Position numbers and translations under genes: made by a program. Source: Escherichia coli (GTDB lineage: Bacteria; Pseudomonadota; Gammaproteobacteria; Enterobacterales; Enterobacteriaceae). From it: 64,000 bases of DNA. The stretch is taken from assembly GCF_024502345.1 (NCBI RefSeq), contig NZ_JALDNN010000001.1; one strand, written 5' to 3'. Of the stretch, positions 1,305-57,046 are shown piece by piece (position 1 is the first letter of the stretch; every line of letters begins with the position of its first letter). The notes under the pieces are model-generated. The model searched no databases. It had not been told where the DNA came from and saw nothing but the letters and a program-made list of their open reading frames with translations.

Positions 1305-1477
1305 AAAGTTCTTTGACGTTGCATTGCTGGCGTAAATGTCAGCAATGCAGCATTTCCTCACGATTCTCCTTTGACGATCGCACTTTTTGCTCGTTATGAT
1401 GGCGTCGCTAGCCTCAGTAAATCCTTACTCCGGCGGTGCGCAACCCGTGCGCGTGAACCACTATCTGAATGCTCATC

Positions 1478-4358: not shown

Positions 4359-6656
4359 ATGAAATGGCTATGTTCAGTAGGAATCGCGGTGAGTCTGGCC
4401 CTGCAGCCAGCACTGGCGGATGATTTATTCGGCAACCATCCATTAACGCCCGAAGCGCGGGATGCGTTCGTCACCGAACTGCTTAAGAAAATGACAGTTG
4501 ATGAGAAAATTGGTCAGCTGCGCTTAATCAGCGTCGGCCCGGATAACCCGAAAGAGGCGATCCGCGAGATGATCAAAGACGGTCAGGTTGGGGCGATTTT
4601 CAACACCGTAACCCGTCAGGATATCCGCGCCATGCAGGATCAGGTGATGGAATTAAGCCGCCTGAAAATTCCTCTTTTCTTTGCTTACGACGTGCTGCAC
4701 GGTCAGCGCACGGTGTTCCCGATTAGCCTCGGTCTGGCCTCGTCTTTTAACCTCGATGCAGTGAAAACGGTCGGACGTGTCTCTGCTTATGAAGCGGCAG
4801 ATGATGGCCTGAATATGACCTGGGCACCGATGGTCGATGTCTCGCGCGATCCGCGCTGGGGACGTGCTTCCGAAGGTTTTGGCGAAGATACGTATCTCAC
4901 CTCAACAATGGGTAAAACCATGGTGGAAGCGATGCAGGGTAAAAGCCCGGCAGATCGCTACTCGGTGATGACCAGCGTCAAACACTTTGCCGCATACGGC
5001 GCGGTAGAAGGCGGTAAAGAGTACAACACCGTCGATATGAGTCCGCAGCGCCTGTTTAATGATTATATGCCGCCGTACAAAGCGGGGCTGGACGCAGGCA
5101 GCGGCGCGGTGATGGTGGCGCTGAACTCGCTGAACGGCACGCCAGCCACCTCCGATTCCTGGCTGCTGAAAGATGTTCTGCGCGACCAGTGGGGCTTTAA
5201 AGGCATCACCGTTTCCGATCACGGTGCAATCAAAGAGCTGATTAAACATGGCACGGCGGCAGACCCGGAAGATGCGGTGCGCGTGGCGCTGAAATCCGGA
5301 ATCAACATGAGTATGAGCGACGAGTACTACTCGAAGTATCTGCCTGGGTTGATTAAATCCGGTAAAGTGACGATGGCAGAGCTGGACGATGCTGCCCGCC
5401 ATGTACTGAACGTTAAATATGATATGGGGTTGTTTAACGACCCATACAGCCATCTCGGTCCGAAAGAGTCTGACCCGGTGGATACCAATGCCGAAAGCCG
5501 CTTGCACCGCAAAGAAGCGCGTGAAGTGGCGCGTGAAAGCCTGGTGTTGCTGAAAAACCGTCTCGAAACGTTACCGCTGAAAAAATCCGCAACCATTGCG
5601 GTGGTTGGCCCGCTGGCAGACAGCAAGCGTGACGTGATGGGAAGCTGGTCGGCGGCAGGTGTTGCAGATCAATCCGTGACCGTGCTGACCGGGATTAAAA
5701 ATGCCGTCGGTGAAAACGGTAAAGTGCTGTATGCCAAAGGGGCGAACGTTACCAGTGACAAAGGCATTATCGATTTCCTGAATCAGTATGAAGAAGCGGT
5801 CAAAGTCGATCCGCGTTCGCCGCAAGAGATGATTGATGAAGCGGTGCAGACGGCGAAACAATCTGATGTGGTGGTGGCTGTAGTCGGTGAAGCACAGGGG
5901 ATGGCGCACGAGGCCTCCAGCCGTACCGATATTACTATTCCGCAAAGCCAACGTGACTTGATTGCGGCGCTGAAAGCCACCGGTAAACCGCTGGTGCTGG
6001 TGCTGATGAACGGGCGTCCGCTGGCGCTGGTGAAAGAAGATCAGCAGGCTGATGCGATTCTGGAAACCTGGTTTGCGGGGACTGAAGGCGGTAATGCAAT
6101 TGCCGATGTGTTGTTTGGCGATTACAACCCGTCCGGCAAGCTGCCGATGTCCTTCCCGCGTTCTGTCGGGCAGATCCCGGTGTACTACAGCCATCTGAAC
6201 ACCGGTCGTCCGTATAATGCCGACAAGCCGAACAAATACACTTCGCGTTATTTTGATGAAGCTAACGGGGCGCTTTATCCGTTCGGCTATGGTCTGAGCT
6301 ATACCACTTTCACCGTCTCTGATGTGAAACTTTCTGCGCCGACCATGAAGCGTGACGGCAAAGTGACGGCCAGCGTGCAGGTGACGAACACCGGTAAACG
6401 CGAAGGGGCCACGGTAGTGCAGATGTACTTGCAGGATGTGACGGCTTCCATGAGTCGTCCGGTGAAACAGCTGAAAGGCTTTGAGAAAATCACCCTGAAA
6501 CCGGGCGAAACTCAGACCGTTAGCTTCCCGATTGATATCGAGGCGCTGAAGTTCTGGAATCAACAGATGAGATATGACGCCGAGCCTGGCAAGTTCAATG
6601 TCTTTATCGGCACTGATTCCGCACGCGTTAAGAAAGGCGAGTTTGAGTTGCTGTAA
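4359..6656 (+). CDS. bglX: periplasmic beta-glucosidase (GH3)
   Basis: ORF 4287..6656; start trimmed to MKWLCSVGIAVSLALQPALA signal peptide (765 aa); GH3-type sequence. Confidence 0.9.
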   Translation: MKWLCSVGIAVSLALQPALADDLFGNHPLTPEARDAFVTELLKKMTVDEKIGQLRLISVGPDNPKEAIREMIKDGQVGAIFNTVTRQDIRAMQDQVMELSRLKIPLFFAYDVLHGQRTVFPISLGLASSFNLDAVKTVGRVSAYEAADDGLNMTWAPMVDVSRDPRWGRASEGFGEDTYLTSTMGKTMVEAMQGKSPADRYSVMTSVKHFAAYGAVEGGKEYNTVDMSPQRLFNDYMPPYKAGLDAGSGAVMVALNSLNGTPATSDSWLLKDVLRDQWGFKGITVSDHGAIKELIKHGTAADPEDAVRVALKSGINMSMSDEYYSKYLPGLIKSGKVTMAELDDAARHVLNVKYDMGLFNDPYSHLGPKESDPVDTNAESRLHRKEAREVARESLVLLKNRLETLPLKKSATIAVVGPLADSKRDVMGSWSAAGVADQSVTVLTGIKNAVGENGKVLYAKGANVTSDKGIIDFLNQYEEAVKVDPRSPQEMIDEAVQTAKQSDVVVAVVGEAQGMAHEASSRTDITIPQSQRDLIAALKATGKPLVLVLMNGRPLALVKEDQQADAILETWFAGTEGGNAIADVLFGDYNPSGKLPMSFPRSVGQIPVYYSHLNTGRPYNADKPNKYTSRYFDEANGALYPFGYGLSYTTFTVSDVKLSAPTMKRDGKVTASVQVTNTGKREGATVVQMYLQDVTASMSRPVKQLKGFEKITLKPGETQTVSFPIDIEALKFWNQQMRYDAEPGKFNVFIGTDSARVKKGEFELL

Positions 6657-6665
6657 TGCTTTAGT

Positions 6666-6688
6666 AAGGGCGTGACATTTGCGCCCTT
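6666..6688 (+). terminator. hairpin after bglX
   Basis: aagggcgtgacatttgcgccctt inverted repeat immediately after bglX stop. Confidence 0.5.
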
Positions 6689-6727
6689 TGCCTGATGTTC
6701 ATATCTTAACTTGCTGAATTTTCGCCC

Positions 6728-6776
6728 TTTGTAGGCCGGATAAGGCGCTCGCGCCGCATCCGGCAGGAAACGCCGG
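6728..6776. repeat. REP-type palindromic element
   Basis: gccggataaggcgctcgcgccgcatccggc motif typical of E. coli REP/BIME. Confidence 0.6.
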
Positions 6777-6907
6777 ACCGAATATGCCTCTTAAGTATTT
6801 ATCTGATTCTGCAACTGAATCCGTCCGCTCAGGCTAATCCCGCCATTATCAACTATGCTTTTCTCTTAATTCGCTGAAAACAACAGTAAAAGAATGAGGA
6901 AAGCATC

Positions 6908-7825
6908 ATGCCACTCTCAAAGGTCTGGGCAGGTTCACTGGTTTTGTTGGCAGCCGTGAGCCTGCCGCTGCACGCGGCTTCCCCCGTTAAAGTCGGTTCA
7001 AAAATCGATACTGAAGGCGCGCTGCTCGGCAATATCATTTTGCAGGTACTGGAAAGCCACGGCGTACCGACGGTCAATAAAGTGCAACTCGGAACGACTC
7101 CTGTGGTGCGCGGGGCGATTACTTCCGGTGAACTGGATATCTATCCGGAATATACCGGCAATGGCGCGTTTTTCTTTAAAGATGAAAACGATGCAGCGTG
7201 GAAAAACGCGCAGCAAGGTTACGAGAAAGTCAAAAAACTTGATGCAGAGCAAAACAAGTTAATCTGGCTGACGCCCGCACCTGCAAATAACACCTGGACC
7301 ATCGCCGTGCGTCAGGATGTGGCAGAGAAAAACAAACTCACTTCGCTTGCTGACCTGAGTCGTTATCTGAAAGAGGGCGGCACCTTCAAACTGGCAGCCT
7401 CGGCAGAGTTTATCGAACGCGCCGATGCCTTACCCGCGTTTGAAAAAGCCTATGGCTTTAAGCTCGGTCAGGATCAGTTGCTGTCACTGGCTGGTGGCGA
7501 CACGGCGGTGACGATTAAAGCCGCTGCCCAGCAAACTTCTGGCGTTAATGCCGCAATGGCTTACGGCACTGACGGTCCGGTCGCGGCGCTGGGGCTGCAA
7601 ACCTTAAGCGATCCGCAAGGCGTGCAACCTATCTACGCGCCTGCACCAGTGGTGCGTGAGTCAGTGCTGAAAGAGTATCCGCAAATGGCACAGTGGCTAC
7701 AGCCAGTCTTCGCCAGCCTCGATGCAAAAACATTGCAGCAACTGAATGCCAGCATTGCAGTGGAAGGACTGGATGCCAAAAAAGTGGCTGCCGACTACCT
7801 GAAACAAAAAGGGTGGGCGAAGTAA
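6908..7825 (+). CDS. osmF: glycine betaine ABC transporter periplasmic binding protein
   Basis: 305-aa ORF with signal peptide; first gene of osmF-yehYXW operon. Confidence 0.85.
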   Translation: MPLSKVWAGSLVLLAAVSLPLHAASPVKVGSKIDTEGALLGNIILQVLESHGVPTVNKVQLGTTPVVRGAITSGELDIYPEYTGNGAFFFKDENDAAWKNAQQGYEKVKKLDAEQNKLIWLTPAPANNTWTIAVRQDVAEKNKLTSLADLSRYLKEGGTFKLAASAEFIERADALPAFEKAYGFKLGQDQLLSLAGGDTAVTIKAAAQQTSGVNAAMAYGTDGPVAALGLQTLSDPQGVQPIYAPAPVVRESVLKEYPQMAQWLQPVFASLDAKTLQQLNASIAVEGLDAKKVAADYLKQKGWAK

Positions 7826-17293: not shown

Positions 17294-18426
17294 GACTGAA
17301 GATTCTCCGCAAGCCATGATGCCAGTTCGCCCGGTGTCATGGCGGCTATTTGTGCGCCGACATTAACCAGCGCCTGGGCCGTATCGCGGTCATAGCAAGG
17401 CGTTGCTGTGCTATCGAGCGCCGCCAGTCCCAGCACTTTGATGCCGCTCTGGACACACTTTTTCACCTGATGCGTCAGCAATGATGATGAACCCCCTTCG
17501 TAAAAATCGCTCACGAGGATAATGACGCTTTTTGCTGGTTGTTCAATAAGTTGCCGACCATATTCCACGGCACTGGCGATATTGGTCCCGCCGCCCAACT
17601 GTACTTTCATTAATAACTCTACCGGATCGGCAACGTCTGCCGTGAGATCAACGACGCTTGTGTCAAACGCCACCAGATGGGTACGAATGCCGGGTAACTG
17701 CCACAAACAGGCCGCCATCACCGCAGAGTGGATCACCGAGTCCACCATCGATCCGCTTTGATCAACCAGTAAGACCAGTTGCCATTGTTCACTGTGGCGT
17801 TTAATGCGGCTGTTAAAGCGGGGGGATTCGATATACAACTTGCCGTGTTGCGGGTGCCAGTGTTGCAGGTTGGCGCGCAGAGTACTTTTGAAATCAAAGT
17901 TTCGCGCCAGTGGAATAAATGAGCGGCGACGGCGATCGCGGACACCAGAAAAAGCCTGACGAACTTCCTTTGCCAGTCGAGCCATAATTTCTTCAACAAC
18001 CTGGCGCACTATCCGGCGGGCGGCAGCCAGTACTTCGGGGTTCATCAGATGTTTGGTGTGCAAAACGGCGCGTAGCAGACTTTCAGAAGGCTGCATACGT
18101 TCCAGCACGTCGAGATTCGTCACCACATCTTCAATGCCGTAGCGCAGTACGGCATCGCTTTCCAGCCGCTCAATCACCTGTTGCGGAAACAGCGTGTGAA
18201 TACTGTTGATCCACTCAGGGGTGGTGAGATTTGAGCTACCTAATCCACCGGAACGTTCACCACGCTGGAGCCGTTCAGGATCGCGCCCATACAGCCACTC
18301 CAGCGCGTGGTCTATCTGCCGGGCGTTGTCATCCAGCCCACAAAGCGTCGTTTCTGCCGCTTCGCCAAGAATTAATCGCCAGCGTTGTAGCTCACGGGTG
18401 GTCAGAAGATCGTTCAGTTCAGACAT
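17290..18426 (-). CDS. yehP: von Willebrand factor A domain protein YehP
   Basis: vWA/MIDAS-like motif LVLLVDQSGSM; start trimmed to MSELNDLLTT (378 aa). Confidence 0.8.
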   Translation of the reverse strand: MSELNDLLTTRELQRWRLILGEAAETTLCGLDDNARQIDHALEWLYGRDPERLQRGERSGGLGSSNLTTPEWINSIHTLFPQQVIERLESDAVLRYGIEDVVTNLDVLERMQPSESLLRAVLHTKHLMNPEVLAAARRIVRQVVEEIMARLAKEVRQAFSGVRDRRRRSFIPLARNFDFKSTLRANLQHWHPQHGKLYIESPRFNSRIKRHSEQWQLVLLVDQSGSMVDSVIHSAVMAACLWQLPGIRTHLVAFDTSVVDLTADVADPVELLMKVQLGGGTNIASAVEYGRQLIEQPAKSVIILVSDFYEGGSSSLLTHQVKKCVQSGIKVLGLAALDSTATPCYDRDTAQALVNVGAQIAAMTPGELASWLAENLQS

Positions 18427-20698
18427 GGAAAACTCCCCAGTTTTGCAGCGATGCCAGTGCCTGCTGTTCGAGTTGTTGATGATGTGCAATGGCTTGTGGT
18501 GGACAATGCAACGGCATTTGCAGCGCCGAAACGGGAAGTTGCGCCAGTTGATAATGCTCAAGCACCTGATGCGCCAGCGTCCCGCGTTCTCGTGGTGGTA
18601 GCCAGGCCATCGCCGCGCGTAAATCGGGCAGGGCATTGATAAAATTGGCATCACTCAGTTGATTTAAATGACTGCTGAAACCGGCGATAAATGCCGGCTG
18701 ACAGGCCAGTTGATGGCGGGCCAGCGCCAGCAAACCGTGCAGCGCTTCGCCGGATTGTGCCGGGGATAACTGCGCCAGCATCGTCAGCGCCGCTTCGGCA
18801 CTAGCGTTGGGATGTTCCAGACGCATCAGTGCGCCAAGAGCCGCGCCGCGATCCAGCGCCGGGGCATGGATTGCCTGACTGCGTCGCTCCAGTAAGGCTA
18901 CCGCCGCAGAAAGAGAAACGCCGGGTAAATTAACGCCGCTATATAGATCGCGCAGGATATGGCAAAGCGCCTGCCAGCTATGCATGTGAGCGTGAAACTC
19001 CTTTTCATCTGGTCTGCCGTTAGATTCACACAGCCACAGCGTGCGATCGATAGCCGCGCATAACGTCGTTTGTAATATCTGCGCGCCTTGCATACCGCTA
19101 ATTTCATCCAGCCGCCATAAGGCATATAGCACTTCCAGCGCCTGGCCCATTTCGGCAAATTGATTTTCCTGGGCGATTAATAATGTGAGTTGCTCCAGTA
19201 ATTGTTGACTGAAGGACGCCAGACCCGCTAACGCCGCCTGGCTAAGACATGTGGTGATACTGCCGATTCCACCCGCGTCCAGCATATCGGTTTCTAATTT
19301 ATGGCGTGCGGCTTCCTGGAGTGTGGCACCAAAGCAGGCGGCCTCAATCAATGCCGCATGCTGGCTAAGCGGGCGGGTTAATTTCCAGCGTTCTTCACCG
19401 TTGCCTGCAAGTGTCAGTGTGCTTCCCTGCTGGCGTACAATCCCTGGGATCTCCAGTATTGCCAGCCGATGTAACACCTGACTTTGCGCTAGTCCATTGG
19501 GGTTAAAGCGATTTAAGGTAAGCTCCGCCGGAAGAGAGATTGCGGTACGTTCCAGTTCGCAGGTGACATCTTTTGGCAGAGGCGGTTGTGGCGTAGAAGG
19601 GGCAAGTTTACCGAATCCGTCACCCGCTAATGTGTCTATCAACGTTAGCAGAATCGGATCGGTATCGGGATGAATAACGCCGCGATAGCTCCATGGCAAC
19701 GGCGCATTCAGGGATTCTTTAATCAGCGAGCCTGCTAAGGCATCCAGCCAGTCAGTGCGTAACGGTAGTGTATGACCGCGCAACTGTGCCAGCGCCATCG
19801 CATGCAGATGAGCGGCAGCCATATCCGCGGTCGAAGCAGGCAAGTGGTGTTGGCGCAAACGGGTAAGAACCGTTTTTAGCAGTTGTTCTCCCGCCTGCTG
19901 TAAGCCCCACTGCCAGCACCAGCTTTGCCAGACCGGGGCAGGCATTCCTGAAAGGTATCCTGCCAGCACATCAAGGCGCTTTTCACTGTAGGGTGTGAGA
20001 TAACAACCTGTAACGGCATCTGCCAGCGAGGGCAATTCTGGCTTGTTAATGTCCTGCGGACATTCGCGCCACATTTTTGCCAGTGCCGGAGCGTGCCAGC
20101 CACCGCAGACGACTAACACGTCGCCATTGTTTTGCTGCATCGCCCATGCAATCCAGCGGGCCATGAAGGCTTCGCGCTGACGATTGAGAGCATCTCCGGG
20201 GGAATCGCCCCGCAGTTGTGCAAAATAGTGCGCCAGCGCAGAGGGTAATGCAGTTTGCTGGCTTTCATCTTCGAATAAGTGATCCCACAGGGTATCGCTG
20301 TTATCCATGCGGGTGGCACGCAGCAGTAAGGTCTGGCTTTCATCTTGCGTATCAGGCGAATCGTTCTCTTCTTCACTCTGCGCCCAGCAAGGCAAATCGA
20401 TGAAGTAAGTTTATGCCTGAATACGACGTGCGGCTTGTAGCGCCTGCCACTCCGGCGAAAATTCAGCAAATGGCGTCCAGGCACCACGCCCGGGGGCCGC
20501 ACCGTCCTGATACTGGCAATAACTGTAAATAGCTACCGGAAGCTGGTGGGCTAAAAACAGTTCGTCTACCCGGTCATTAAAATCAGCCGGGCCTTCAATC
20601 AACACGTATCGTGGCCGCTGGCTTTCGATTAATGATTTGACCAGCCGGGCGCAGGCCGGGCTATGATGCCGGATGCCGACAATTAACGGCTCGCTCAT
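18419..20698 (-). pseudogene. yehM: yehM interrupted by an in-frame TAA stop at 20411..20413
   Basis: ORFs 20411..20866 and 18419..20395 are in the same frame separated by one TAA; read through they give 759 codons from MSEPLIVGIRHH. Confidence 0.7.
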
Positions 20699-21797: not shown

Positions 21798-21904
21798 ATA
21801 TTCATCCCTGAAATGTATTAATGAAATAAACGATATTTTACGCGCAATAAATGTTTGGCGCATTAGTTGTTTGAGCGAAAAATATCTGGAAAGCAGATCA
21901 CAGT

Positions 21905-22000
21905 AAATAAAAAAACCTGCTGGTGAGGCAGGTTCTTTTATTTACTATTTTCAGGCCTAACACCACAGCCTGTGCAACATCGTGTTCCAACGAACGAATT
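21905..22000 (-). ncRNA. orzO: putative Orz-like antitoxin sRNA, copy 1 (ends approximate)
   Basis: Minus-strand intrinsic terminator (stem aacctgc/gcaggtt at 21914..21934 followed by U-run on minus strand); 20-nt region 21972..21991 repeated directly in the zor leader at 22138..22157, as expected for a divergent base-pairing sRNA. Confidence 0.45.
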
Positions 22001-22229
22001 ATAACCACGGCTGGACCCCGTTGCAATTAAGATAATGAGATTTATAATCCTGACTGTTGGGACGTTGCGCCGGATCGAACCTATTTCAAGTCCTGGCTAC
22101 CGGACGGGGGGTGCTGCAGGTAGTGCCCTGATCCGGAGTGCAACATCGTGGTCCAACATACGTAAACCAGTATCGACAGGCAGTGTAAGGGTAAGGTGCT
22201 GGTGTTGCGCTCCTTAATAAGGAGAGCGG

Positions 22230-22319
22230 ATGGACTCGCTGACACAAAAGTTAACCGTGCTCATTGCTGTACTGGAGCTATTAGTGGCTCTGTTACGGTT
22301 GATTGATTTGTTGAAGTAA
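22230..22319 (+). CDS. zorO: type I toxin, 29-aa hydrophobic peptide MDSLTQKLTVLIAVLELLVALLRLIDLLK
   Basis: Hand-translated small ORF with SD aaggagag upstream; matches recalled Zor toxin of E. coli O157; followed by hairpin gggggaaaaccgcttccccc. Confidence 0.75.
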   Translation: MDSLTQKLTVLIAVLELLVALLRLIDLLK

Positions 22320-22511
22320 CGGGCAAATTGAAACGCATCTAAGGGGGAAAACCGCTTCCCCCTTTAATAAAATGATTACTGTTTTTATTAATTCATCATA
22401 TAACTCATTTTTATTTATAAATTCATCGATTTTATATTCAACGCACCATTTGACCGGGATGTGAATATTTATGTTGGGCTATTGGCAAAAAATATCTGGA
22501 AAGTAGATCGC

Positions 22512-22610
22512 AGAAAATAAAAAAACCTGCTGGTGAGGCAGGTTCTTTTATTTACTACAGTGACGCTAACTTGCTGATTGTGCAACATTTCGTACCAACG
22601 AATAAATTAT
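22512..22610 (-). ncRNA. orzP: putative Orz-like antitoxin sRNA, copy 2 (ends approximate)
   Basis: Same terminator hairpin at 22524..22544; region 22580..22600 repeated in the copy-2 leader at 22746..22766. Confidence 0.45.
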
Positions 22611-22837
22611 ATCCATATCCACACTCCATTGCAATTCAGTGAGTGAGATTTATAATCCTGCCCGTTGGGAGGTTGTGCCGGATCGGACCAATTTTAAGTC
22701 CTGGCTGCCGGACGGGTGGTGCCGCAGGCGGTGCCCTGATCCGGAGAGCAACGTTTCGTACCAACATACGTAAACCAGTATCAACAGGCAGTGTAAGGGT
22801 AAGGTGCTGGTGTTGCGCTCCTTAATAAGGAGAGCGG

Positions 22838-22927
22838 ATGGACACGCTGACACAAAAGTTAACCGTGCTCATTGCCGTACTGGAGTTATTAGTGGCTCTG
22901 TTACGGTTGATTGATTTGTTGAAGTAA
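22838..22927 (+). CDS. zorP: type I toxin, 29-aa peptide MDTLTQKLTVLIAVLELLVALLRLIDLLK
   Basis: Second small ORF, one residue different from copy 1 (T3 vs S3); same SD and terminator; O/P naming of the two copies is my guess. Confidence 0.75.
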   Translation: MDTLTQKLTVLIAVLELLVALLRLIDLLK

Positions 22928-23036
22928 CGGGCAAATTGAAACGCATCTAAGGGGGAATACCGTTTCCCCCTTTAAGAAAGCTATACTCGTCATACTTCAA
23001 GTTGCATGTGCTGCGACTTTAATTATCTAGAGTATA

Positions 23037-23414: not shown

Positions 23415-25622
23415 TTAATGGAAAATGACGTCAGGTGCGCTTAACGCCTCACTCAAATCAAACACATCAAGTTCGGCAAAAGTGACGGATTTATTGTCAC
23501 GGTACACTCGAAGAGAACGGAAGCTCATTAGCGCTTTGCTATCAACATTGTAGTGGTTAAAACCGGGTGAAAACTTAAGGACCAGCCGGTACTCGCCCAG
23601 GTCATAGACAAATGCATCCTCATAGCCTGACTCCCAGCCTTTGTATCGCATTCCCATAAGCTGCCCAACGGTAGCGGATTTACCTTCCCAGCGAGTCAGG
23701 CTGTTACTGGTTGACTCGTCAGGTGTGAGCAGCACCGTGCACCGCGCCAACTGGCGAAAAGGCGGCATAATTTCGTAATCGGCAAAAAGCTGTGCAAATT
23801 CACTGCGCATTTCTACTGTCATTTCTAACGGGTGGGCAATGCCAATCAGAGCGTCCGCAGGCAGGTCAATTGGCTCATCTTGCGCATTGCAGAACTCCCC
23901 CTCTGCGGCCACACGAAAGGCGTTGAGTAAACAACGCGGTTCATTTGCCGGATAAGCCCCCCATATTAATCGCTGGGTAACCAGACGGGTAAAGGGATGA
24001 TTAACAAACAGAGAATGAAAATCTGCCAGCGACCAGCGTCGGGTGGTACGTAGGGCCGTTTCAAGACGCGGGAGCAGGTTTTTGCTCACCTGAGTGGCAT
24101 CTTTTTTTAGCCCTTTTAGTCGGGCCAGTGCCTCGGGCGCTTTCAGTTGATCGTCATCGGCGCGCAACCGGGGAACGCTTTTCTGGCGAACGTTTTGCTG
24201 ATCAAAGATAACCGGGTTGAGGTTTTCATCGAAGCGAACGGTAAACTGCCGGGGACCAAAATCAAAACTCAACGCCTGCGGATCATCAAGGCCCAGGGTT
24301 GGGACTAATCTGTCCGCTAGCTCTTCCTGGCTTAGCCCGCGATTTTCTGCGACCACCTGAAGAAATTCCGCCGCGTTATCACGTAAGGGGCGGGATTTCG
24401 CCCGTTGCGATATATGATGCAGCTGTATCAGCGCCATATCATTATTCATCAGGGTAAGGATGTTCAGGCCACTGACAGCACGGGCAGATTTGCCTTCTTG
24501 TGGCCAGCCGAGGATCTGTGTCGTTAGATCCCGTGCCGTGCTTTCGTCACCAAAGAGACTTAACGCCAGAAATGCCCAGTTGTCTTTTACGGGGGCACCA
24601 GCTTGTTGCCACGCAGTGAAGAGATCCCAGGCAAAAGCTGCCAGCGTTTGTGGCTGGCAGAACGTTTTCAGTTGTTCCAGCCCGCTATAAAAACGTCCCC
24701 CCTGGGTAAAGCGCAGCATTTCGCCGATAATTTCCAGAGCGTCATCGGTAACAGGTTGATTATTAGTGATAAGGCGCGGCCTGGACCACATTTGCGGATG
24801 CCAGAAATCAGGGGCTTTTGGAATGCGTGCCGGGTAAATCTCTATTGGACTCTGTTTAAGTAATTGTTCCAGGGCAGGCCATAGATCTGTACGCTGCCAA
24901 CGATTGGCTACAGTTTGTAGCAATTCGCCATGCCCATGTTCGTAAAGTAAACGCAGGGCAAGTAATGCAGCTTCGCTTTTATCGCTAGATTTGGTGAAGA
25001 CAAGAGGGATAAGTGCAGTAGCCGTATGTTCCGGCCATTGTAAAATCCACTGGCGAGCCAGATTACGCTGGCCCGCAAAACGCTGCCAGCAGCTTTCCTC
25101 TGCCAGAGAGAGATGCTTACGCAGTCGGAGATCGAATTCGTTATAGGTTTCTGAGCGATAACCATAGCCATAATCCTCGTCCTGATACTGCAATGTCACT
25201 ACCAGAGGATCACTCTCATAACACCGCGCAATAAACTGGCGTGCAATCACCACCTCAGTCGCATATTCCAGCCCCTCTTGTTGGACGATTTCGTCGAGCA
25301 ACTGTTGGCTGTCATTTTGCGCGATACAGGCTAGCGCCGCCATTGTCCGGGGCGGGATTGAGGGTTTGTGTTCGCCGATCAAGTTGATGGCCTGCGTGAT
25401 GGCGGACTGCCACTCCAGTGAAAAATTTTCATAACGCCAGACAATGTTTTTTTTCTTCTCAGCTTTTTGTAGCAATTCATCACCCAGTGTCTGAATGATG
25501 CTTTCAGTGATAACAGGCACTGGTTCGCCCGGCCAATTGCGATGGCTGAGTGGTGTTTTACCATTTTTATATTTCAGTTCCAGTTGGGCGTTATCAGCCA
25601 GCCACGGTAATTCCTTGTCCAT
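23415..25622 (-). CDS. yehI: DUF4132-type protein, paralog of MolR C-terminal region
   Basis: 735-aa ORF sharing long blocks with the adjacent 1264-aa ORF (LRLRKHLSLAEES; FAWDLFTAW...GPRQFTV). Confidence 0.75.
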   Translation of the reverse strand: MDKELPWLADNAQLELKYKNGKTPLSHRNWPGEPVPVITESIIQTLGDELLQKAEKKKNIVWRYENFSLEWQSAITQAINLIGEHKPSIPPRTMAALACIAQNDSQQLLDEIVQQEGLEYATEVVIARQFIARCYESDPLVVTLQYQDEDYGYGYRSETYNEFDLRLRKHLSLAEESCWQRFAGQRNLARQWILQWPEHTATALIPLVFTKSSDKSEAALLALRLLYEHGHGELLQTVANRWQRTDLWPALEQLLKQSPIEIYPARIPKAPDFWHPQMWSRPRLITNNQPVTDDALEIIGEMLRFTQGGRFYSGLEQLKTFCQPQTLAAFAWDLFTAWQQAGAPVKDNWAFLALSLFGDESTARDLTTQILGWPQEGKSARAVSGLNILTLMNNDMALIQLHHISQRAKSRPLRDNAAEFLQVVAENRGLSQEELADRLVPTLGLDDPQALSFDFGPRQFTVRFDENLNPVIFDQQNVRQKSVPRLRADDDQLKAPEALARLKGLKKDATQVSKNLLPRLETALRTTRRWSLADFHSLFVNHPFTRLVTQRLIWGAYPANEPRCLLNAFRVAAEGEFCNAQDEPIDLPADALIGIAHPLEMTVEMRSEFAQLFADYEIMPPFRQLARCTVLLTPDESTSNSLTRWEGKSATVGQLMGMRYKGWESGYEDAFVYDLGEYRLVLKFSPGFNHYNVDSKALMSFRSLRVYRDNKSVTFAELDVFDLSEALSAPDVIFH

Positions 25623-44499: not shown

Positions 44500-44625
44500 A
44501 CCAAACGACTCGGGGTGCCCTTCTGCGTGAAGGCTGAGAAATACCCGTATCACCTGATCTGGATAATGCCAGCGTAGGGAAGTCACGGACCACCAGGTCA
44601 TTGCTTCTTCACGTTATGGCAGGAG
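44500..44625 (+). promoter_or_regulatory. TPP (thi-box) riboswitch of thiMD
   Basis: ccaaacgactcggggtgcccttctgcgtgaaggctgagaaatacccgtatcacctgatctggataatgccagcgtagggaagtc directly upstream of thiM. Confidence 0.9.
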
Positions 44626-46281: not shown

Positions 46282-47100
46282 ATGCAGCTAAGAATTACCA
46301 GTCGAAAAAAACTCACCTCTCTATTATGCGCTCTTGGGCTAATTTCCATCGTTGCAATTTATCCGCGTCAGACGGTGAATTTTTTCTATTCGACAGCAGT
46401 TCAGATTACAGACTACATCCATTTCTACGGTTATCGCCCGGTTAAATCTTTCGCTATTCGCATTCCTGCCAGTTACACCATTCACGGAATAGATGTTTCT
46501 CGCTGGCAGGAGCGGATCGACTGGCAGCGGGTGGCAAAAATGCGCGACAACGGTATCCGCTTATAATTTGCTTTTATTAAGGCGACGGAAGGCGAAAAGC
46601 TGGTGTACCCGTATTTTTCGCGTAACTGGCAACTAAGCCGCGAAAATGGCCTGCTGCGCGGGGCGTATCATTATTTCTCCCCGTCGGTAGCAGCGCCGGT
46701 TCAGGCACGATTATTTCTGCAAACGGTGGATTTCTCACAAGGCGATTTCCCTGCGGTGCTGGACGTAGAAGAACGGGGAAAATTGTCGGCAAAAGAATTA
46801 CGCAAGAGGGTAAGTCAGTGGCTAAAAATGGTCGAAAAAAGTACGGGGAAAAAGCCGATTATTTACTCAGGAGCCGTTTTTTATCACACCAATCTGGCGG
46901 GCTATTTCAATGAATATCCGTGGTGGGTAGCTCACTACTATCAACGTCGTCCGGACAATGACGGCATGGCCTGGCGCTTCTGGCAGCATTCCGACCGTGG
47001 ACAGGTAGATGGCATCAATGGTCCGGTGGATTTTAATGTGTTTAATGGCACGGTGGAGGAGTTGCAGGCATTCGTTGATGGGATTAAAGAAACGCCTTAA
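46282..47100 (+). pseudogene. yegX: GH25 lysozyme-like protein with in-frame TAA stop at 46564..46566
   Basis: ORFs 46273..46566 and 46603..47100 share a frame; stop falls in ...RDNGIRL*FAFIKATEGEKL..., a conserved GH25 block; read through gives 272 codons from MQLRITSRKK. Confidence 0.7.
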
Positions 47101-52429: not shown

Positions 52430-52560
52430 GCACTACCCCGTAGGACGGATAAGGCGTTTACGCCGCATCCGGCAACCTATGCCTGATGCGACGCTGAAGC
52501 GTCTTATCATGCCTACGCAGCGCTGCCACATATGTTTACACCGCATCCGGCATAAAAACA
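52430..52560. repeat. REP/BIME palindromic element cluster
   Basis: Repeated gccggatgcggcgtaaacgcc / gcctgatgcgacgc type palindromes between fbaB and gatY. Confidence 0.6.
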
Positions 52561-52705: not shown

Positions 52706-54863
<2,158 letters not shown>

Positions 54864-54872
54864 GGACGGTAT

Positions 54873-55325
54873 ATGACTAACCTGTTTGTTCGTAGCGGAA
54901 TTTCTTTTGTCGATCGTAGCGAAGTTTTAACCCATATCGGTAATGAGATGCTCGCCAAAGGTGTGGTTCATGATACCTGGCCACAGGCATTAATTGCCAG
55001 AGAAGCAGAATTCCCTACCGGGATAATGCTTGAGCAGCACGCCATTGCAATACCGCATTGTGAGGCGATTCATGCTAAGTCGTCAGCCATTTATCTGTTA
55101 AGGCCAACAAATAAAGTTCATTTTCAGCAAGCGGATGATGATAACGACGTGGAGGTATCGTTGGTTATTGCGTTGATTGTGGAAAATCCGCAGCAGCAAT
55201 TGAAACTTTTACGCTGTTTATTTGGCAAGTTACAACAGCCCGATATCGTCGAGACACTAATCACTCTTCCTGAAACCCAGTTAAAGGAATACTTCACAAA
55301 GTATGTTTTAGATTCAGACGAATAA
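54873..55325 (+). CDS. gatA: galactitol PTS EIIA
   Basis: 150-aa ORF, operon position. Confidence 0.9.
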   Translation: MTNLFVRSGISFVDRSEVLTHIGNEMLAKGVVHDTWPQALIAREAEFPTGIMLEQHAIAIPHCEAIHAKSSAIYLLRPTNKVHFQQADDDNDVEVSLVIALIVENPQQQLKLLRCLFGKLQQPDIVETLITLPETQLKEYFTKYVLDSDE

Positions 55326-55355
55326 ATCCCTCTGTAACAATAAAAAGGACTATTT

Positions 55356-55640
55356 ATGAAACGCAAGATTATTGTCGCTTGCGGAGGCGCGGTTGCGACC
55401 TCTACGATGGCGGCGGAAGAAATTAAAGAGTTGTGTCAGAATCATAATATTCCTGTTGAATTAATCCAGTGTCGGGTTAATGAAATAGAAACCTATATGG
55501 ATGGTGTGCATTTGATATGCACCACTGCCAAAGTGGATCGTAGTTTTGGCGATATTCCGTTAGTTCACGGCATGCCTTTTATTTCTGGTGTCGGTATCGA
55601 AGCATTACAAAATAAAATTCTGACTATCTTACAGGGGTGA
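55356..55640 (+). CDS. gatB: galactitol PTS EIIB
   Basis: 94-aa ORF with Cys near N-terminus ([11 protein letters not shown]). Confidence 0.9.
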
Positions 55641-55643
55641 CCT

Positions 55644-56999
55644 ATGTTTTCAGAAGTCATGCGTTATATTCTCGACCTCGGCCCTACGGTGATGCTTCCG
55701 ATTGTCATCATTATTTTTTCTAAAATATTAGGCATGAAGGCAGGCGATTGCTTTAAAGCGGGTCTGCATATCGGGATTGGCTTTGTTGGCATTGGCCTTG
55801 TGATTGGCTTAATGCTGGATTCCATTGGTCCGGTGGCGAAAGCGATGGCGGAAAATTTCGACCTGAATCTGCATGTGGTCGATGTCGGCTGGCCGGGCTC
55901 TTCACCAATGACCTGGGCGTCGCAAATTGCGCTGGTGGCGATTCCGATTGCGATTCTGGTTAACGTGGCGATGTTACTGACCCGTATGACGCGGGTGGTA
56001 AATGTTGATATCTGGAATATCTGGCATATGACCTTCACCGGCGCGTTGCTGCATCTGGCAACCGGTTCATGGATGATAGGGATGGCAGGTGTGGTAATTC
56101 ACGCGGCGTTTGTTTATAAGCTCGGCGACTGGTTTGCCCGCGATACCCGAAATTTCTTTGAGCTGGAAGGTATTGCTATTCCGCACGGTACGTCGGCGTA
56201 TATGGGGCCGATTGCGGTGCTGGTCGATGCTATCATCGAGAAAATCCCAGGCGTTAACCGAATTAAATTTAGCGCCGACGATATTCAGCGCAAATTTGGT
56301 CCGTTTGGCGAGCCTGTCACCGTGGGTTTTGTGATGGGGCTGATTATCGGCATCCTCGCGGGTTACGATGTCAAAGGTGTATTGCAGCTGGCGGTAAAAA
56401 CAGCGGCGGTGATGCTGCTGATGCCACGGGTGATTAAACCCATCATGGATGGTTTAACGCCCATCGCTAAGCAGGCCCGTAGTCGTTTACAGGCGAAGTT
56501 CGGCGGTCAGGAGTTCCTGATTGGCCTGGATCCCGCATTACTGCTGGGGCATACGGCGGTGGTATCGGCAAGCCTGATTTTTATCCCGCTCACCATTTTA
56601 ATTGCTGTTTGTGTGCCGGGTAATCAAGTGCTGCCGTTTGGCGATCTTGCCACTATCGGCTTCTTTGTGGCGATGGCGGTCGCGGTGCATCGTGGAAATC
56701 TGTTCCGCACCTTAATCTCGGGTGTCATCATTATGAGCATCACCCTGTGGATCGCGACGCAAACTATTGGTTTGCACACCCAACTGGCGGCTAATGCTGG
56801 GGCGTTAAAAGCCGTGGGTATGGTGGCTTCAATGGATCAGGGCGGTTCTCCCATTACCTGGTTACTGATTCAGGTTTTCTCCCCGCAAAATATTCCCGGT
56901 TTCATTATTATCGGCGCAATTTATCTTACCGGTATTTTCATGACCTGGCGTAGAGCGCGTGGCTTTATTAAACAAGAGAAAGTCGTTCTCGCAGAATAA
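55644..56999 (+). CDS. gatC: galactitol PTS EIIC
   Basis: 451-aa polytopic membrane ORF. Confidence 0.9.
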   Translation: MFSEVMRYILDLGPTVMLPIVIIIFSKILGMKAGDCFKAGLHIGIGFVGIGLVIGLMLDSIGPVAKAMAENFDLNLHVVDVGWPGSSPMTWASQIALVAIPIAILVNVAMLLTRMTRVVNVDIWNIWHMTFTGALLHLATGSWMIGMAGVVIHAAFVYKLGDWFARDTRNFFELEGIAIPHGTSAYMGPIAVLVDAIIEKIPGVNRIKFSADDIQRKFGPFGEPVTVGFVMGLIIGILAGYDVKGVLQLAVKTAAVMLLMPRVIKPIMDGLTPIAKQARSRLQAKFGGQEFLIGLDPALLLGHTAVVSASLIFIPLTILIAVCVPGNQVLPFGDLATIGFFVAMAVAVHRGNLFRTLISGVIIMSITLWIATQTIGLHTQLAANAGALKAVGMVASMDQGGSPITWLLIQVFSPQNIPGFIIIGAIYLTGIFMTWRRARGFIKQEKVVLAE

Positions 57000-57046
57000 T
57001 TTTTACCTGAGGGGGAGGTTATCCCCCTTAACAATCAGGAGTTTTT

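What the first reader, a model, noticed from the sequence alone, without database searches (positions are those of the whole stretch)
46282..47100. yegX (GH25 lysozyme-like) carries an in-frame TAA within a conserved motif
The stop at 46564..46566 interrupts ...RDNGIRL*FAFIKATEGEKL..., a conserved GH25 block. It is the third in-frame nonsense codon in this window, after yehM and yehB, in genes that are intact in K-12 by length. Together with the two IS insertions, this is an unusual density of inactivating lesions for 64 kb, suggesting a lineage under relaxed selection or a consistent sequencing problem.
Basis: seen in the sequence. Interest (0 to 1): 0.35.

Follow-up and report, generated by a model that had tools for sequence, protein, structure and literature searches.

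The report
Inherited stop codon inactivating yegX
A putative cell-wall-cutting enzyme gene (yegX) of this E. coli strain is a genuine, inherited pseudogene killed by a premature stop codon; this is ordinary decay of a dispensable gene, not a sequencing error and not a new biological system.

Summary
yegX (46282-47100, +) has an in-frame TAA at 46564-46566 (codon 95 of 272), early in its GH25 muramidase domain. It separates catalytic Asp71 from Asp162/Glu164.

The stop is real and inherited. Four independently sequenced complete E. coli genomes (UK NCTC, Mali x2, Tanzania) carry a 100% identical allele, which RefSeq already annotates as a pseudogene with "internal stop". The two fragments also occur on about 180-230 public contigs.

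An intact ancestor allele differs only in codon 95 (CAG) and already carries D109Y. The missense therefore came first, followed by two substitutions in one codon.

The yehM (Q96*) and yehB (W189*) stops, IS1 in yehC and IS903B in yehB are also real and reproduced in other assemblies. They are younger and private to the window's sub-lineage. A 1.4-kb deletion in yehI is a further lesion.

A sequencing artefact is refuted. "Relaxed selection" is only weakly supported:
- Private SNPs occur in neutral proportions, but the sample is small.
- The genes hit are dispensable and recurrently broken elsewhere. At least 5% of complete E. coli genomes carry a different +4-bp frameshift in yegX.

Low interest; already known in kind.

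The parts
46282..47100 (+). yegX pseudogene (GH25 putative muramidase, 272 codons including one internal stop)
   Evidence: It lies between thiD and yegW, as in K-12 and all relatives. Pfam PF01183 covers residues 70-245. PGAP marks the identical allele 'pseudo, internal stop' in 4 genomes.
46564..46566 (+). Premature stop TAA (codon 95; the ancestral codon is CAG, Gln)
   Evidence: The ancestor-like contig L027 differs from the window's yegX only at 46564 (C) and 46566 (G). Only 4 of 5,426 complete genomes carry this allele.
46606..46608 (+). D109Y missense (GAC->TAC) at a mostly conserved GH25 Asp; it predates the stop
   Evidence: The residue is Asp in 2wag, 4kru and 1jfx and Ser in 6zm8. 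Intact Q95/Y109 alleles exist on two metagenome contigs.
46282..46566 (+). Residual N-terminal ORF (94 aa): hydrophobic N-terminal anchor or signal segment plus the first GH25 strand with Asp71. It lacks Asp162 and Glu164.
   Evidence: The exact product P0001 is on 228 contigs.
46603..47100 (+). Residual C-terminal ORF (165 aa from a GTG). It has no export signal and no Asp71, so it is presumed non-functional.
   Evidence: The exact product P0016 is on 179 contigs. Catalytic residues were mapped.
18419..20698 (-). yehM pseudogene. Q96* (CAA->TAA) at 20411-20413 is the only difference in 2,280 nt from the intact MLI023K1 allele.
   Evidence: Reproduced in L008 (GCA_050022275.1) and L009 (SRR24000611).
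23415..25622 (-). yehI remnant (735-aa ORF) with a ~1.4-kb internal deletion. The junction at ~25079-25089 lies between 11-bp near-repeats.
   Evidence: K-12 yehI is 3,633 nt. The same 735-aa product is in GCA_001484085.1 and GCA_050022275.1.
34314..35764 (+). yehC (fimbrial chaperone) split by IS1 (34449-35216), with an 8-9-bp target duplication (C)AGGGAAAC
   Evidence: The junction is reproduced in GCA_001484085.1 (L007), and contigs L029 and L030 start inside the IS1.
35780..39326 (+). yehB (fimbrial usher) pseudogene: W189* (TGG->TAG) at 36344-36346, plus an IS903B insertion at 36839-37895 with 9-bp duplication GGTGCGAGC
   Evidence: The stop without the IS occurs in L029-L032, and the stop with the IS junction occurs in L033.

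Best explanation
yegX in this strain is a true, vertically inherited pseudogene.

In an ancestor of a small human-gut E. coli clade, the gene first acquired D109Y, a change at a mostly conserved GH25 residue. Codon 95 then changed from CAG (Gln) to TAA through two substitutions. The order is either CAG->CAA->TAA or CAG->TAG->TAA; no intermediate was seen.

Translation now ends after residue 94. The product keeps the N-terminal hydrophobic segment and catalytic Asp71 but lacks Asp162 and Glu164 and most of the barrel. Any re-initiation at the GTG at 46603 would give a fragment with no export signal and no Asp71. Muramidase activity is therefore lost. This last step is inferred and was not tested.

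The gene is dispensable, so the null allele persisted and spread with the clade.

The other lesions arose later in the window's own sub-lineage: yehM Q96*, yehB W189*, yehC::IS1 and the yehI deletion, with yehB::IS903B last. They are ordinary neutral decay and IS activity in cryptic or non-essential genes. The three separate hits in the yehCB fimbrial operon show that it was already dead.
For: Shown directly:
- The stop and its reading frame.
- A 100% identical 951-bp allele in NCTC9064, MLI023K1, MLI023K2 and PRO_A-1412-6M-A_ESBL, from the UK NCTC, Mali and Tanzania. PGAP flags it 'internal stop'.
- Only 4 of 5,426 complete genomes carry it. The fragment proteins are on 228 and 179 contigs.
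- Contig L027 has the same yegX allele, including Y109 and all synonymous sites, with CAG at codon 95.
- GH25 membership and catalytic mapping: D71, D162 and E164 align with cellosyl D9, D98 and E100.
- The nearest intact allele differs by 8 synonymous and 1 missense change, so the gene was under purifying selection before its loss.

Dispensability:
- A Keio yegX deletion mutant was screened, so it is viable (PMC11502571).
- There are independent null alleles elsewhere: a +4 TTTA duplication in at least 276 of 5,426 complete genomes, annotated 'frameshifted'; an IS1 insertion in WP2-S18-ESBL-08; and 24-aa in-frame deletion alleles.

Timing of the other lesions:
- The relatives have yehM, yehB and yehC intact.
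- yehM differs from the MLI023K1 allele by 1 nt.
- The IS903B target site is empty in four datasets that already carry W189*.
Against: - No expression or activity data exist for either fragment.
- All clade members are identical over yegX, so there is no post-inactivation drift to prove relaxed constraint within the clade.
- The intact Q95/Y109 alleles come from metagenome or Logan contigs, which can be chimeric. L026 carries Y109 on a different synonymous background, so Y109 could be a tolerated polymorphism rather than a first damaging hit.
- An ochre suppressor elsewhere in the genome cannot be excluded from a 64-kb window. No tRNA gene lies in the window.
Confidence: 0.93

Rival explanations
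1. Sequencing or assembly artefact: the three stop codons are base-calling errors in this assembly.
For: Nothing positive. It rests only on the a-priori suspicion raised by several lesions in one window.
Against: All three are substitutions, not homopolymer indels. The yegX TAA is identical in 4 complete genomes from different laboratories and on ~200 contigs. yehM Q96* is in GCA_050022275.1 and SRR24000611. yehB W189* is in at least 6 datasets. The IS junctions, with their target duplications, are reproduced.
Confidence: 0.01
2. The window's lineage is undergoing genome-wide accelerated gene decay. This would mean relaxed or inefficient purifying selection with IS expansion, as in early host restriction or Shigella-like evolution, and the yegX stop would be one symptom.
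For: Five disrupted genes lie in ~58 non-prophage genes, against 2 in the same region of the relatives and 1 in K-12. Window-private SNPs are 14 non-synonymous to 5 synonymous, close to neutral. On my count, the sister MLI023K1 branch is 7 to 7. There are two private IS insertions in 47 kb. For a query containing IS1 and IS903B, the relatives have 18-38 matching places against a median of 11.
Against: The yegX stop predates the other lesions and is shared with relatives that have intact yeh genes, so it is not part of a recent burst. Three of the lesions are repeated hits in a single dead operon, yehCB. P(>=2 nonsense among 19 coding SNPs) is ~0.15 under neutrality. The 14:5 versus 7:7 contrast is not significant at this sample size. 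Ratios close to neutral are usual on very short branches. All targets are cryptic or dispensable genes that also decay in ordinary E. coli: yehH in K-12, and Yeh fimbriae disrupted in ~8% of strains (PMC3559732). No essential or core metabolic gene in the window is broken.
Confidence: 0.15
3. The stop is tolerated because the gene still works, either by translational read-through or suppression of UAA, or as a two-piece enzyme made of the N-fragment plus a re-initiated C-fragment.
For: A GTG at 46603 opens a 165-aa in-frame ORF 12 codons after the stop, with a weak purine-rich stretch (GGAAGG) upstream. The downstream frame has no further lesions.
Against: The UAA is followed by U, which is the strongest termination context known in E. 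coli (established knowledge). No recoding mechanism is known for UAA in E. coli. No suppressor tRNA lies in the window. The C-fragment would lack the export segment and catalytic Asp71, and the N-fragment lacks Asp162 and Glu164. The absence of further lesions is explained by the youth of the allele, since all copies are 100% identical. Other lineages simply frameshift or IS-disrupt the gene.
Confidence: 0.03
4. Loss of yegX is adaptive: there is convergent selection for null alleles rather than neutral decay.
For: At least four independent null alleles exist in E. coli: the TAA, the +4 duplication, an IS1 insertion and a 24-aa deletion. The TAA, the +4 duplication and the 24-aa deletion all lie within codons ~85-108. 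One of them reaches at least 5% of complete genomes.
Against: About 95% of genomes keep a full-length gene, and intact alleles differ mostly at synonymous sites (8 synonymous to 1 missense). The +4 and 24-aa events sit at short direct repeats (TTTATT; GGTGG), so they are explained by slippage hot-spots. The 5% figure may reflect a single clonal event. No phenotype data are available.
Confidence: 0.08

Closest known systems
RefSeq-annotated yegX pseudogene ('internal stop') in E. coli NCTC9064, MLI023K1, MLI023K2 and PRO_A-1412-6M-A_ESBL
   Same: 100% identical over 951 bp, including the TAA and D109Y, with the same thiMD-yegX-yegW synteny.
   Different: Those strains have intact yehM, yehB and yehC and no internal deletion in yehI, which is only frameshifted there. 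The window belongs to a sub-lineage with additional lesions.
The yegX +4 (TTTA duplication) frameshift allele, widespread in other E. coli (e.g. WCHEC020031; the protein look-up also names APEC O78)
   Same: The same gene is inactivated 12 nt downstream, in the same conserved FAFIKATEG block. It leaves a similar N-fragment (100 aa) and the same 165-aa C-terminal ORF. PGAP marks it as a pseudogene.
   Different: It is a frameshift by tandem duplication rather than a nonsense substitution. It has an independent origin on a D109 background and is far more common (at least 276 against 4 of 5,426 complete genomes).
GH25 muramidases with solved structures (B. anthracis 2wag; Streptomyces cellosyl 1jfx; clostridial autolysin 4kru)
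   Same: The repaired YegX aligns over the whole catalytic domain (E = 1e-26 to 1e-32), with the Asp / Asp-x-Glu catalytic residues conserved.
   Different: The window's copy is truncated at residue 95 and carries D109Y. E. coli YegX has an N-terminal hydrophobic extension of ~65 residues and no demonstrated activity or role.
Pseudogene and IS accumulation in cryptic E. coli loci (K-12 yehH pseudogene; disrupted Yeh chaperone-usher operons; extreme form in Shigella)
   Same: The neighbourhood and the lesion types are the same: nonsense, frameshift, deletion and IS1-type or other IS insertion in non-essential y-genes (PMC3559732).
   Different: There is no evidence here for Shigella-scale, genome-wide decay. 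Only a 64-kb sample is available, and no core gene is hit.

Membership tests
Glycoside hydrolase family 25 (GH25 muramidase/lysozyme) | Significant match to the GH25 domain profile over its full length | tested here: met
   Pfam PF01183, E = 1.2e-52, covering profile positions 1-180 of 180 at residues 70-245 of the stop-repaired protein. PDB hits are 2wag (3e-31) and 1jfx.
Glycoside hydrolase family 25 (GH25 muramidase/lysozyme) | Catalytic N-terminal Asp plus the Asp-x-Glu motif (cellosyl D9, D98, E100; residue numbers recalled from the literature and consistent with the alignment numbering) | tested here: met
   D71 (GIDVS) and D162/E164 (LDVEE) align with cellosyl D9 and D98/E100. They are encoded on opposite sides of the stop, so no single product has all three.
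Glycoside hydrolase family 25 (GH25 muramidase/lysozyme) | An intact, translatable ORF giving a complete barrel (i.e. a functional member) | tested here: not met
   In-frame TAA at codon 95 of 272.
Glycoside hydrolase family 25 (GH25 muramidase/lysozyme) | Demonstrated muramidase activity | not testable with these tools
   No biochemical data for YegX were found. The literature search returned only genome-wide screens.
Bacterial pseudogene (nonsense type) | A premature in-frame stop relative to full-length orthologues at the same syntenic locus | tested here: met
   K-12, DA33133 and ~95% of complete genomes have an 819-nt intact yegX between thiD and yegW. The window has the TAA at codon 95.
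Bacterial pseudogene (nonsense type) | The lesion is real, i.e. reproduced in independent sequence data | tested here: met
   4 complete genomes plus ~180-230 contigs.
Bacterial pseudogene (nonsense type) | The truncation removes parts essential for function | tested here: met
   178 of 272 residues, including D162 and E164, lie downstream of the stop. Loss of activity is inferred.
Bacterial pseudogene (nonsense type) | Relaxed constraint after inactivation (excess non-synonymous changes or further lesions) | tested here: inconclusive
   All TAA copies are identical, so the allele is too young to show drift. D109Y predates the stop.
Programmed stop-codon recoding / read-through gene | The stop is conserved across diverged lineages, with a recoding signal and a functional full-length product | tested here: not met
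   The stop is confined to one near-clonal allele, 4 of 5,426 genomes. The codon is UAA followed by U, and other lineages have a sense codon there.
IS1 and IS903B (IS5 family) insertions | A full-length element with terminal inverted repeats, a transposase and a target-site duplication, interrupting a gene that is contiguous in relatives | tested here: met
   IS903B is 1,057 bp, 100% identical to annotated IS903B copies, with a 9-bp duplication. Its transposase matches NF033579 (E = 6e-107), and the empty site is seen in L029-L032. IS1 is 768 bp with an 8-9-bp duplication, and relatives show the empty site.

The most novel reading that the evidence does not exclude
yegX may be a recurrent target of loss in E. 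coli. At least four independent null alleles exist, and three of them (the TAA, the +4 duplication and the 24-aa deletion) cluster within codons ~85-108. This could mean that losing this membrane-anchored GH25 muramidase is advantageous in some gut lineages. Alternatively, the window's sub-lineage could be in an early phase of genome-wide reductive evolution, given its neutral dN/dS, IS1 and IS903B activity and strongly AT-biased private mutations. Neither reading is excluded by a 64-kb sample.
Probability: 0.1. Interest if true: 0.35.

Novelty: already known. Interest (0 to 1): 0.07.

Why it matters
It matters little. The finding confirms that the assembly is accurate at these sites and that yegX should be annotated as a pseudogene in this strain, as RefSeq already does for its relatives.

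It adds a small worked example of stepwise decay. A missense change was followed by a nonsense change in yegX. In the yeh fimbrial operon, an IS1 insertion and a nonsense codon were followed by an IS903B insertion.

It also shows that yegX, an uncharacterised GH25 gene, is dispensable and repeatedly lost in natural E. coli. That is useful background for anyone trying to assign it a function.

Tried and rejected
1. Shigella or EIEC origin. I suspected this from the IS and pseudogene load. It was rejected because the closest genomes and all named protein matches are commensal-type E. coli from human stool.

2. Counting yehM Q96* carriers from the 95-aa N-fragment (27 contigs). This was misleading. 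Most of those contigs simply end at the variant site and contain no stop. Only L008 and L009 show a true split gene.

3. Looking for a CAA or TAG intermediate at codon 95. None exists among the complete genomes: the >=99% identity band holds only the four identical copies.

4. NCBIfam gave no family for YegX. Pfam and PDB did.

5. The promoter and terminator scan around yegX gave nothing above the shuffled background, so polarity on yegW cannot be judged.

6. The literature search for yegX returned only genome-wide screens and false positives.

7. A genome-wide pseudogene count for the strain was not possible. Its genome is not in the annotated collection; the best hits are 99.5-99.8% identical.

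8. Whether GCA_001484085.1 carries the yehM stop could not be settled. Pseudogene fragments may not be indexed for that record.

Full report
**Observation**

The window's yegX occupies 46282-47100 on the + strand, between thiD and yegW. This is the same position as in K-12 and every relative examined. Codon 95 is TAA (46564-46566). The translation reads ...RDNGIRL*FAFIKATEGEKL..., and the remaining 177 codons stay open and colinear with intact orthologues.

With the stop repaired, the protein matches Pfam GH25 (PF01183) over the full profile (residues 70-245, E = 1e-52). It also matches solved GH25 muramidases: 2wag at 3e-31, plus 4kru and cellosyl 1jfx. FAFIKATEG is identical in 2wag. The stop therefore sits at the edge of a truly conserved block.

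The alignment to cellosyl places its D9, D98 and E100 on YegX D71, D162 and E164. The stop separates the first catalytic Asp from the Asp-x-Glu pair.

**Is the stop real?**

Yes. A 951-bp query around the gene is 100% identical in four complete genomes, and the next best hit is 98.8% identical:
- NCTC9064
- MLI023K1 and MLI023K2 (Mali, stool)
- PRO_A-1412-6M-A_ESBL (Tanzania, faeces)

RefSeq/PGAP annotates yegX in all four as a pseudogene with 'internal stop'. An 83-bp query centred on the stop is matched exactly in only those 4 of 5,426 genomes.

The two residual ORF products occur as exact sequences on 228 contigs (94 aa) and 179 contigs (165 aa) from NCBI, ENA and Logan assemblies. The allele circulates in nature and is not a base-calling error.

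**Origin of the allele**

Relative to the nearest intact allele in complete genomes (DA33133), the window's gene has:
- CAG->TAA at codon 95, which is two substitutions
- D109Y (GAC->TAC)
- 8 synonymous differences

The 8:1 ratio of synonymous to missense changes shows the gene was under purifying selection before it was lost.

An exact look-up found an intact Q95/Y109 protein on two gut-metagenome-derived contigs. One of them (L027, SRR13378616) is identical to the window's yegX at every base except the two in codon 95. D109Y therefore preceded the stop.

D109 is Asp in three of the four best solved homologues, so this change may already have been damaging. That is an inference.

No CAA or TAG intermediate is present among the complete genomes.

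**Consequence (inferred)**

The 94-aa product keeps the hydrophobic N-terminal segment and D71 only. A product re-initiated at the GTG at 46603 would lack both the export segment and D71. UAA followed by U is the strongest E. coli termination context (established knowledge). No tRNA gene lies in the window. Loss of function is by far the most likely outcome.

**Dispensability and recurrence**

A Keio yegX deletion strain was screened, so the mutant is viable (PMC11502571). No functional study of yegX was found.

Other E. coli carry independent null alleles:
- A 4-bp tandem duplication (TTTA->TTTATTTA) lies 12 nt downstream of the window's stop and gives '...FAFIY*'. It is listed in ~9,900 index blocks of the contig collection. 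It is exact in at least 276 of 5,426 complete genomes, where PGAP calls it 'frameshifted'.
- An IS1 insertion occurs in WP2-S18-ESBL-08.
- In-frame deletion alleles lacking 24 aa also exist.

**The wider claim**

Translating NCTC9064's proteins against the window and comparing codons confirms the following:
- yehM Q96*: CAA->TAA on the minus strand at 20411-20413. It is the only difference in 2,280 nt from the intact MLI023K1 allele.
- yehB W189*: TGG->TAG at 36344-36346.
- IS1 in yehC: 34449-35216.
- A 1,057-bp IS in yehB: 36839-37895, with a 9-bp duplication. It is 100% identical to annotated IS903B copies.

I also found a ~1.4-kb internal deletion in yehI. It leaves a 735-aa ORF, against 1210 aa in K-12.

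All other genes in the window that could be compared with NCTC9064 (up to yegR) are full-length.

**Timing of the lesions**

The four relatives that share the yegX stop have yehM, yehB and yehC intact. Their yehI is merely frameshifted.

Closer relatives exist in public data:
- GCA_001484085.1 carries the yehC::IS1 junction and the yehI deletion.
- GCA_050022275.1 and SRR24000611 carry yehM Q96*, yehB W189* and yehC::IS1, at 99.98-100% identity.

Four datasets have W189* with an empty IS903B target site. One dataset (SRR32878073) has the IS junction, as the window does.

The order of events is therefore:
1. The yegX stop, shared by the whole clade.
2. The yehI deletion, yehC::IS1, yehB W189* and yehM Q96*.
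3. yehB::IS903B.

Three hits in one operon mark yehCB as already dead.

**Relaxed selection?**

Outside one recombined tract (~5.0-7.7 kb), the window differs from MLI023K1 by a few dozen SNPs. In the 8-48.7 kb stretch, 20 SNPs are private to the window: 5 synonymous, 12 missense, 2 nonsense and 1 intergenic.

Neutral expectation for 19 coding SNPs in these genes is about 5 synonymous and 0.7 nonsense. P(>=2 nonsense) is ~0.15. The private branch thus shows no visible purifying selection, but the excess of nonsense codons is not significant.

On my count, the sister MLI023K1 branch shows 7 non-synonymous to 7 synonymous changes. The contrast with the window is not significant at these numbers.

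All 16 polarisable private SNPs hit G:C pairs, and 11 of them are GC->AT. The sister branch is similarly biased (14 of 18, my count). This is the familiar signature of recent, unfiltered mutations.

The genes hit are all dispensable:
- Yeh fimbriae are 'functional but cryptic' and intact in 92% of strains (PMC3559732).
- A yehABCD deletion mutant of MG1655 was constructed, and the paper's abstract states that all 12 single-operon fimbrial deletion mutants grew better than wild type (PMC8174762).
- K-12 itself has a pseudogene (yehH) in this neighbourhood.

A genome-wide test for this strain could not be run.

**Verdict**

The finding is a correct observation of an ordinary, inherited pseudogene. 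Its kind is already known, and RefSeq already annotates this exact allele. The sequencing-artefact reading is refuted. The relaxed-selection reading remains possible, but these data do not require it.

Noticed in passing
window 21871-22371 and 22482-22979 (OrzO-P hits at 21909-21984 and 22519-22592, minus strand): There are two tandem ~500-bp copies (87% identical) between yehL and yehK. Each carries an Rfam OrzO-P antitoxin RNA hit (99.9 and 88.8 bits). This is a duplicated zor/orz type I toxin-antitoxin locus. Copy number differs between relatives: NCTC9064 has one, while MLI023K1 and the window have two.
   Followed up: partly
window 23415-25622 (-), junction ~25079-25089: yehI has a ~1.4-kb internal deletion between 11-bp near-repeats (AACG[C/G]TGCCAG), leaving a 735-aa ORF. 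The relatives NCTC9064 and MLI023K1 instead have a full-length but frameshifted yehI, and K-12 has it intact (1210 aa).
   Followed up: yes
window ~60863-64000 (integrase 60943-61956, minus strand): Homology to NCTC9064 ends at 60863, just after yegR. Beyond it lies a prophage whose integrase is identical in sequence to phage P2 Int (UniRef VINT_BPP2). From memory, K-12 carries a P2 remnant (ogrK/yegZ) at this site. yegQ, yegP and baeSR are not within the window.
   Followed up: partly
L018/L019/L022 (other E. coli), corresponding to window ~46573-46580: A 4-bp tandem duplication (TTTA) frameshifts yegX in at least 276 of 5,426 complete E. coli genomes and is listed in ~9,900 index blocks of the contig collection. 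It lies only 12 nt from the window's stop. 24-aa in-frame deletion alleles (P0019, P0021) remove codons ~85-108. Three independent lesions therefore cluster in one ~70-nt stretch, probably at slippage-prone short repeats.
   Followed up: partly
window 8000-48700 (private SNPs, e.g. 11762, 13532, 20413, 35982, 36345, 41566): All 16 polarisable window-private SNPs are at G:C pairs (11 GC->AT, 3 GC->TA, 2 GC->CG) in a region of 49% GC. Seven of the 20 private SNPs fall within the 4 kb of yehC-yehB, including four G->A changes within 434 bp. The sister branch is also AT-biased (14 of 18), so this is probably ordinary mutation bias plus neutral drift in a dead operon. The extremity of the bias remains unexplained.
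   Followed up: partly
L010-L017 (public metagenome/Logan contigs), ending at window 20414: Many public contigs end exactly at the yehM SNP site. They yield spurious '95-aa YehM' proteins without a stop codon in the protein collection. This is probably an assembly-graph break at a strain-variable site. It inflates the apparent number of carriers of the nonsense allele.
   Followed up: yes
window ~5000-7700 (bglX-osmF) and ~54000-60860 (gat operon to yegR): Differences are densely clustered in two stretches: ~70 SNPs against MLI023K1 in bglX-osmF, and 11-22 per kb against NCTC9064 in the gat region. The flanking sequence is near-identical. These look like recombination tracts rather than point mutation.
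   Followed up: no
L005 8724-9506 (NCTC9064), corresponding to window ~43700-43710: NCTC9064 carries an IS1 between the hypothetical gene and the HTH-like gene upstream of thiM. The window and MLI023K1 lack it. IS1 is therefore independently active in several members of this clade.
   Followed up: no
window 1393-1473 (+), 44501-44597 (+), 52443-52513 (+): There are three other Rfam hits above gathering score: Peptidase-S11 RNA upstream of pbpG, the TPP riboswitch upstream of thiM, and naRNA4 downstream of fbaB. All are expected for this E. coli region.
   Followed up: no
protein cluster 1: The 90%-identity cluster that contains the 272-aa YegX also lists 248-aa members named 'GntR family transcriptional regulator', which is the length and name of the neighbouring YegW. 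This looks like a clustering or naming artefact in the protein collection.
   Followed up: no
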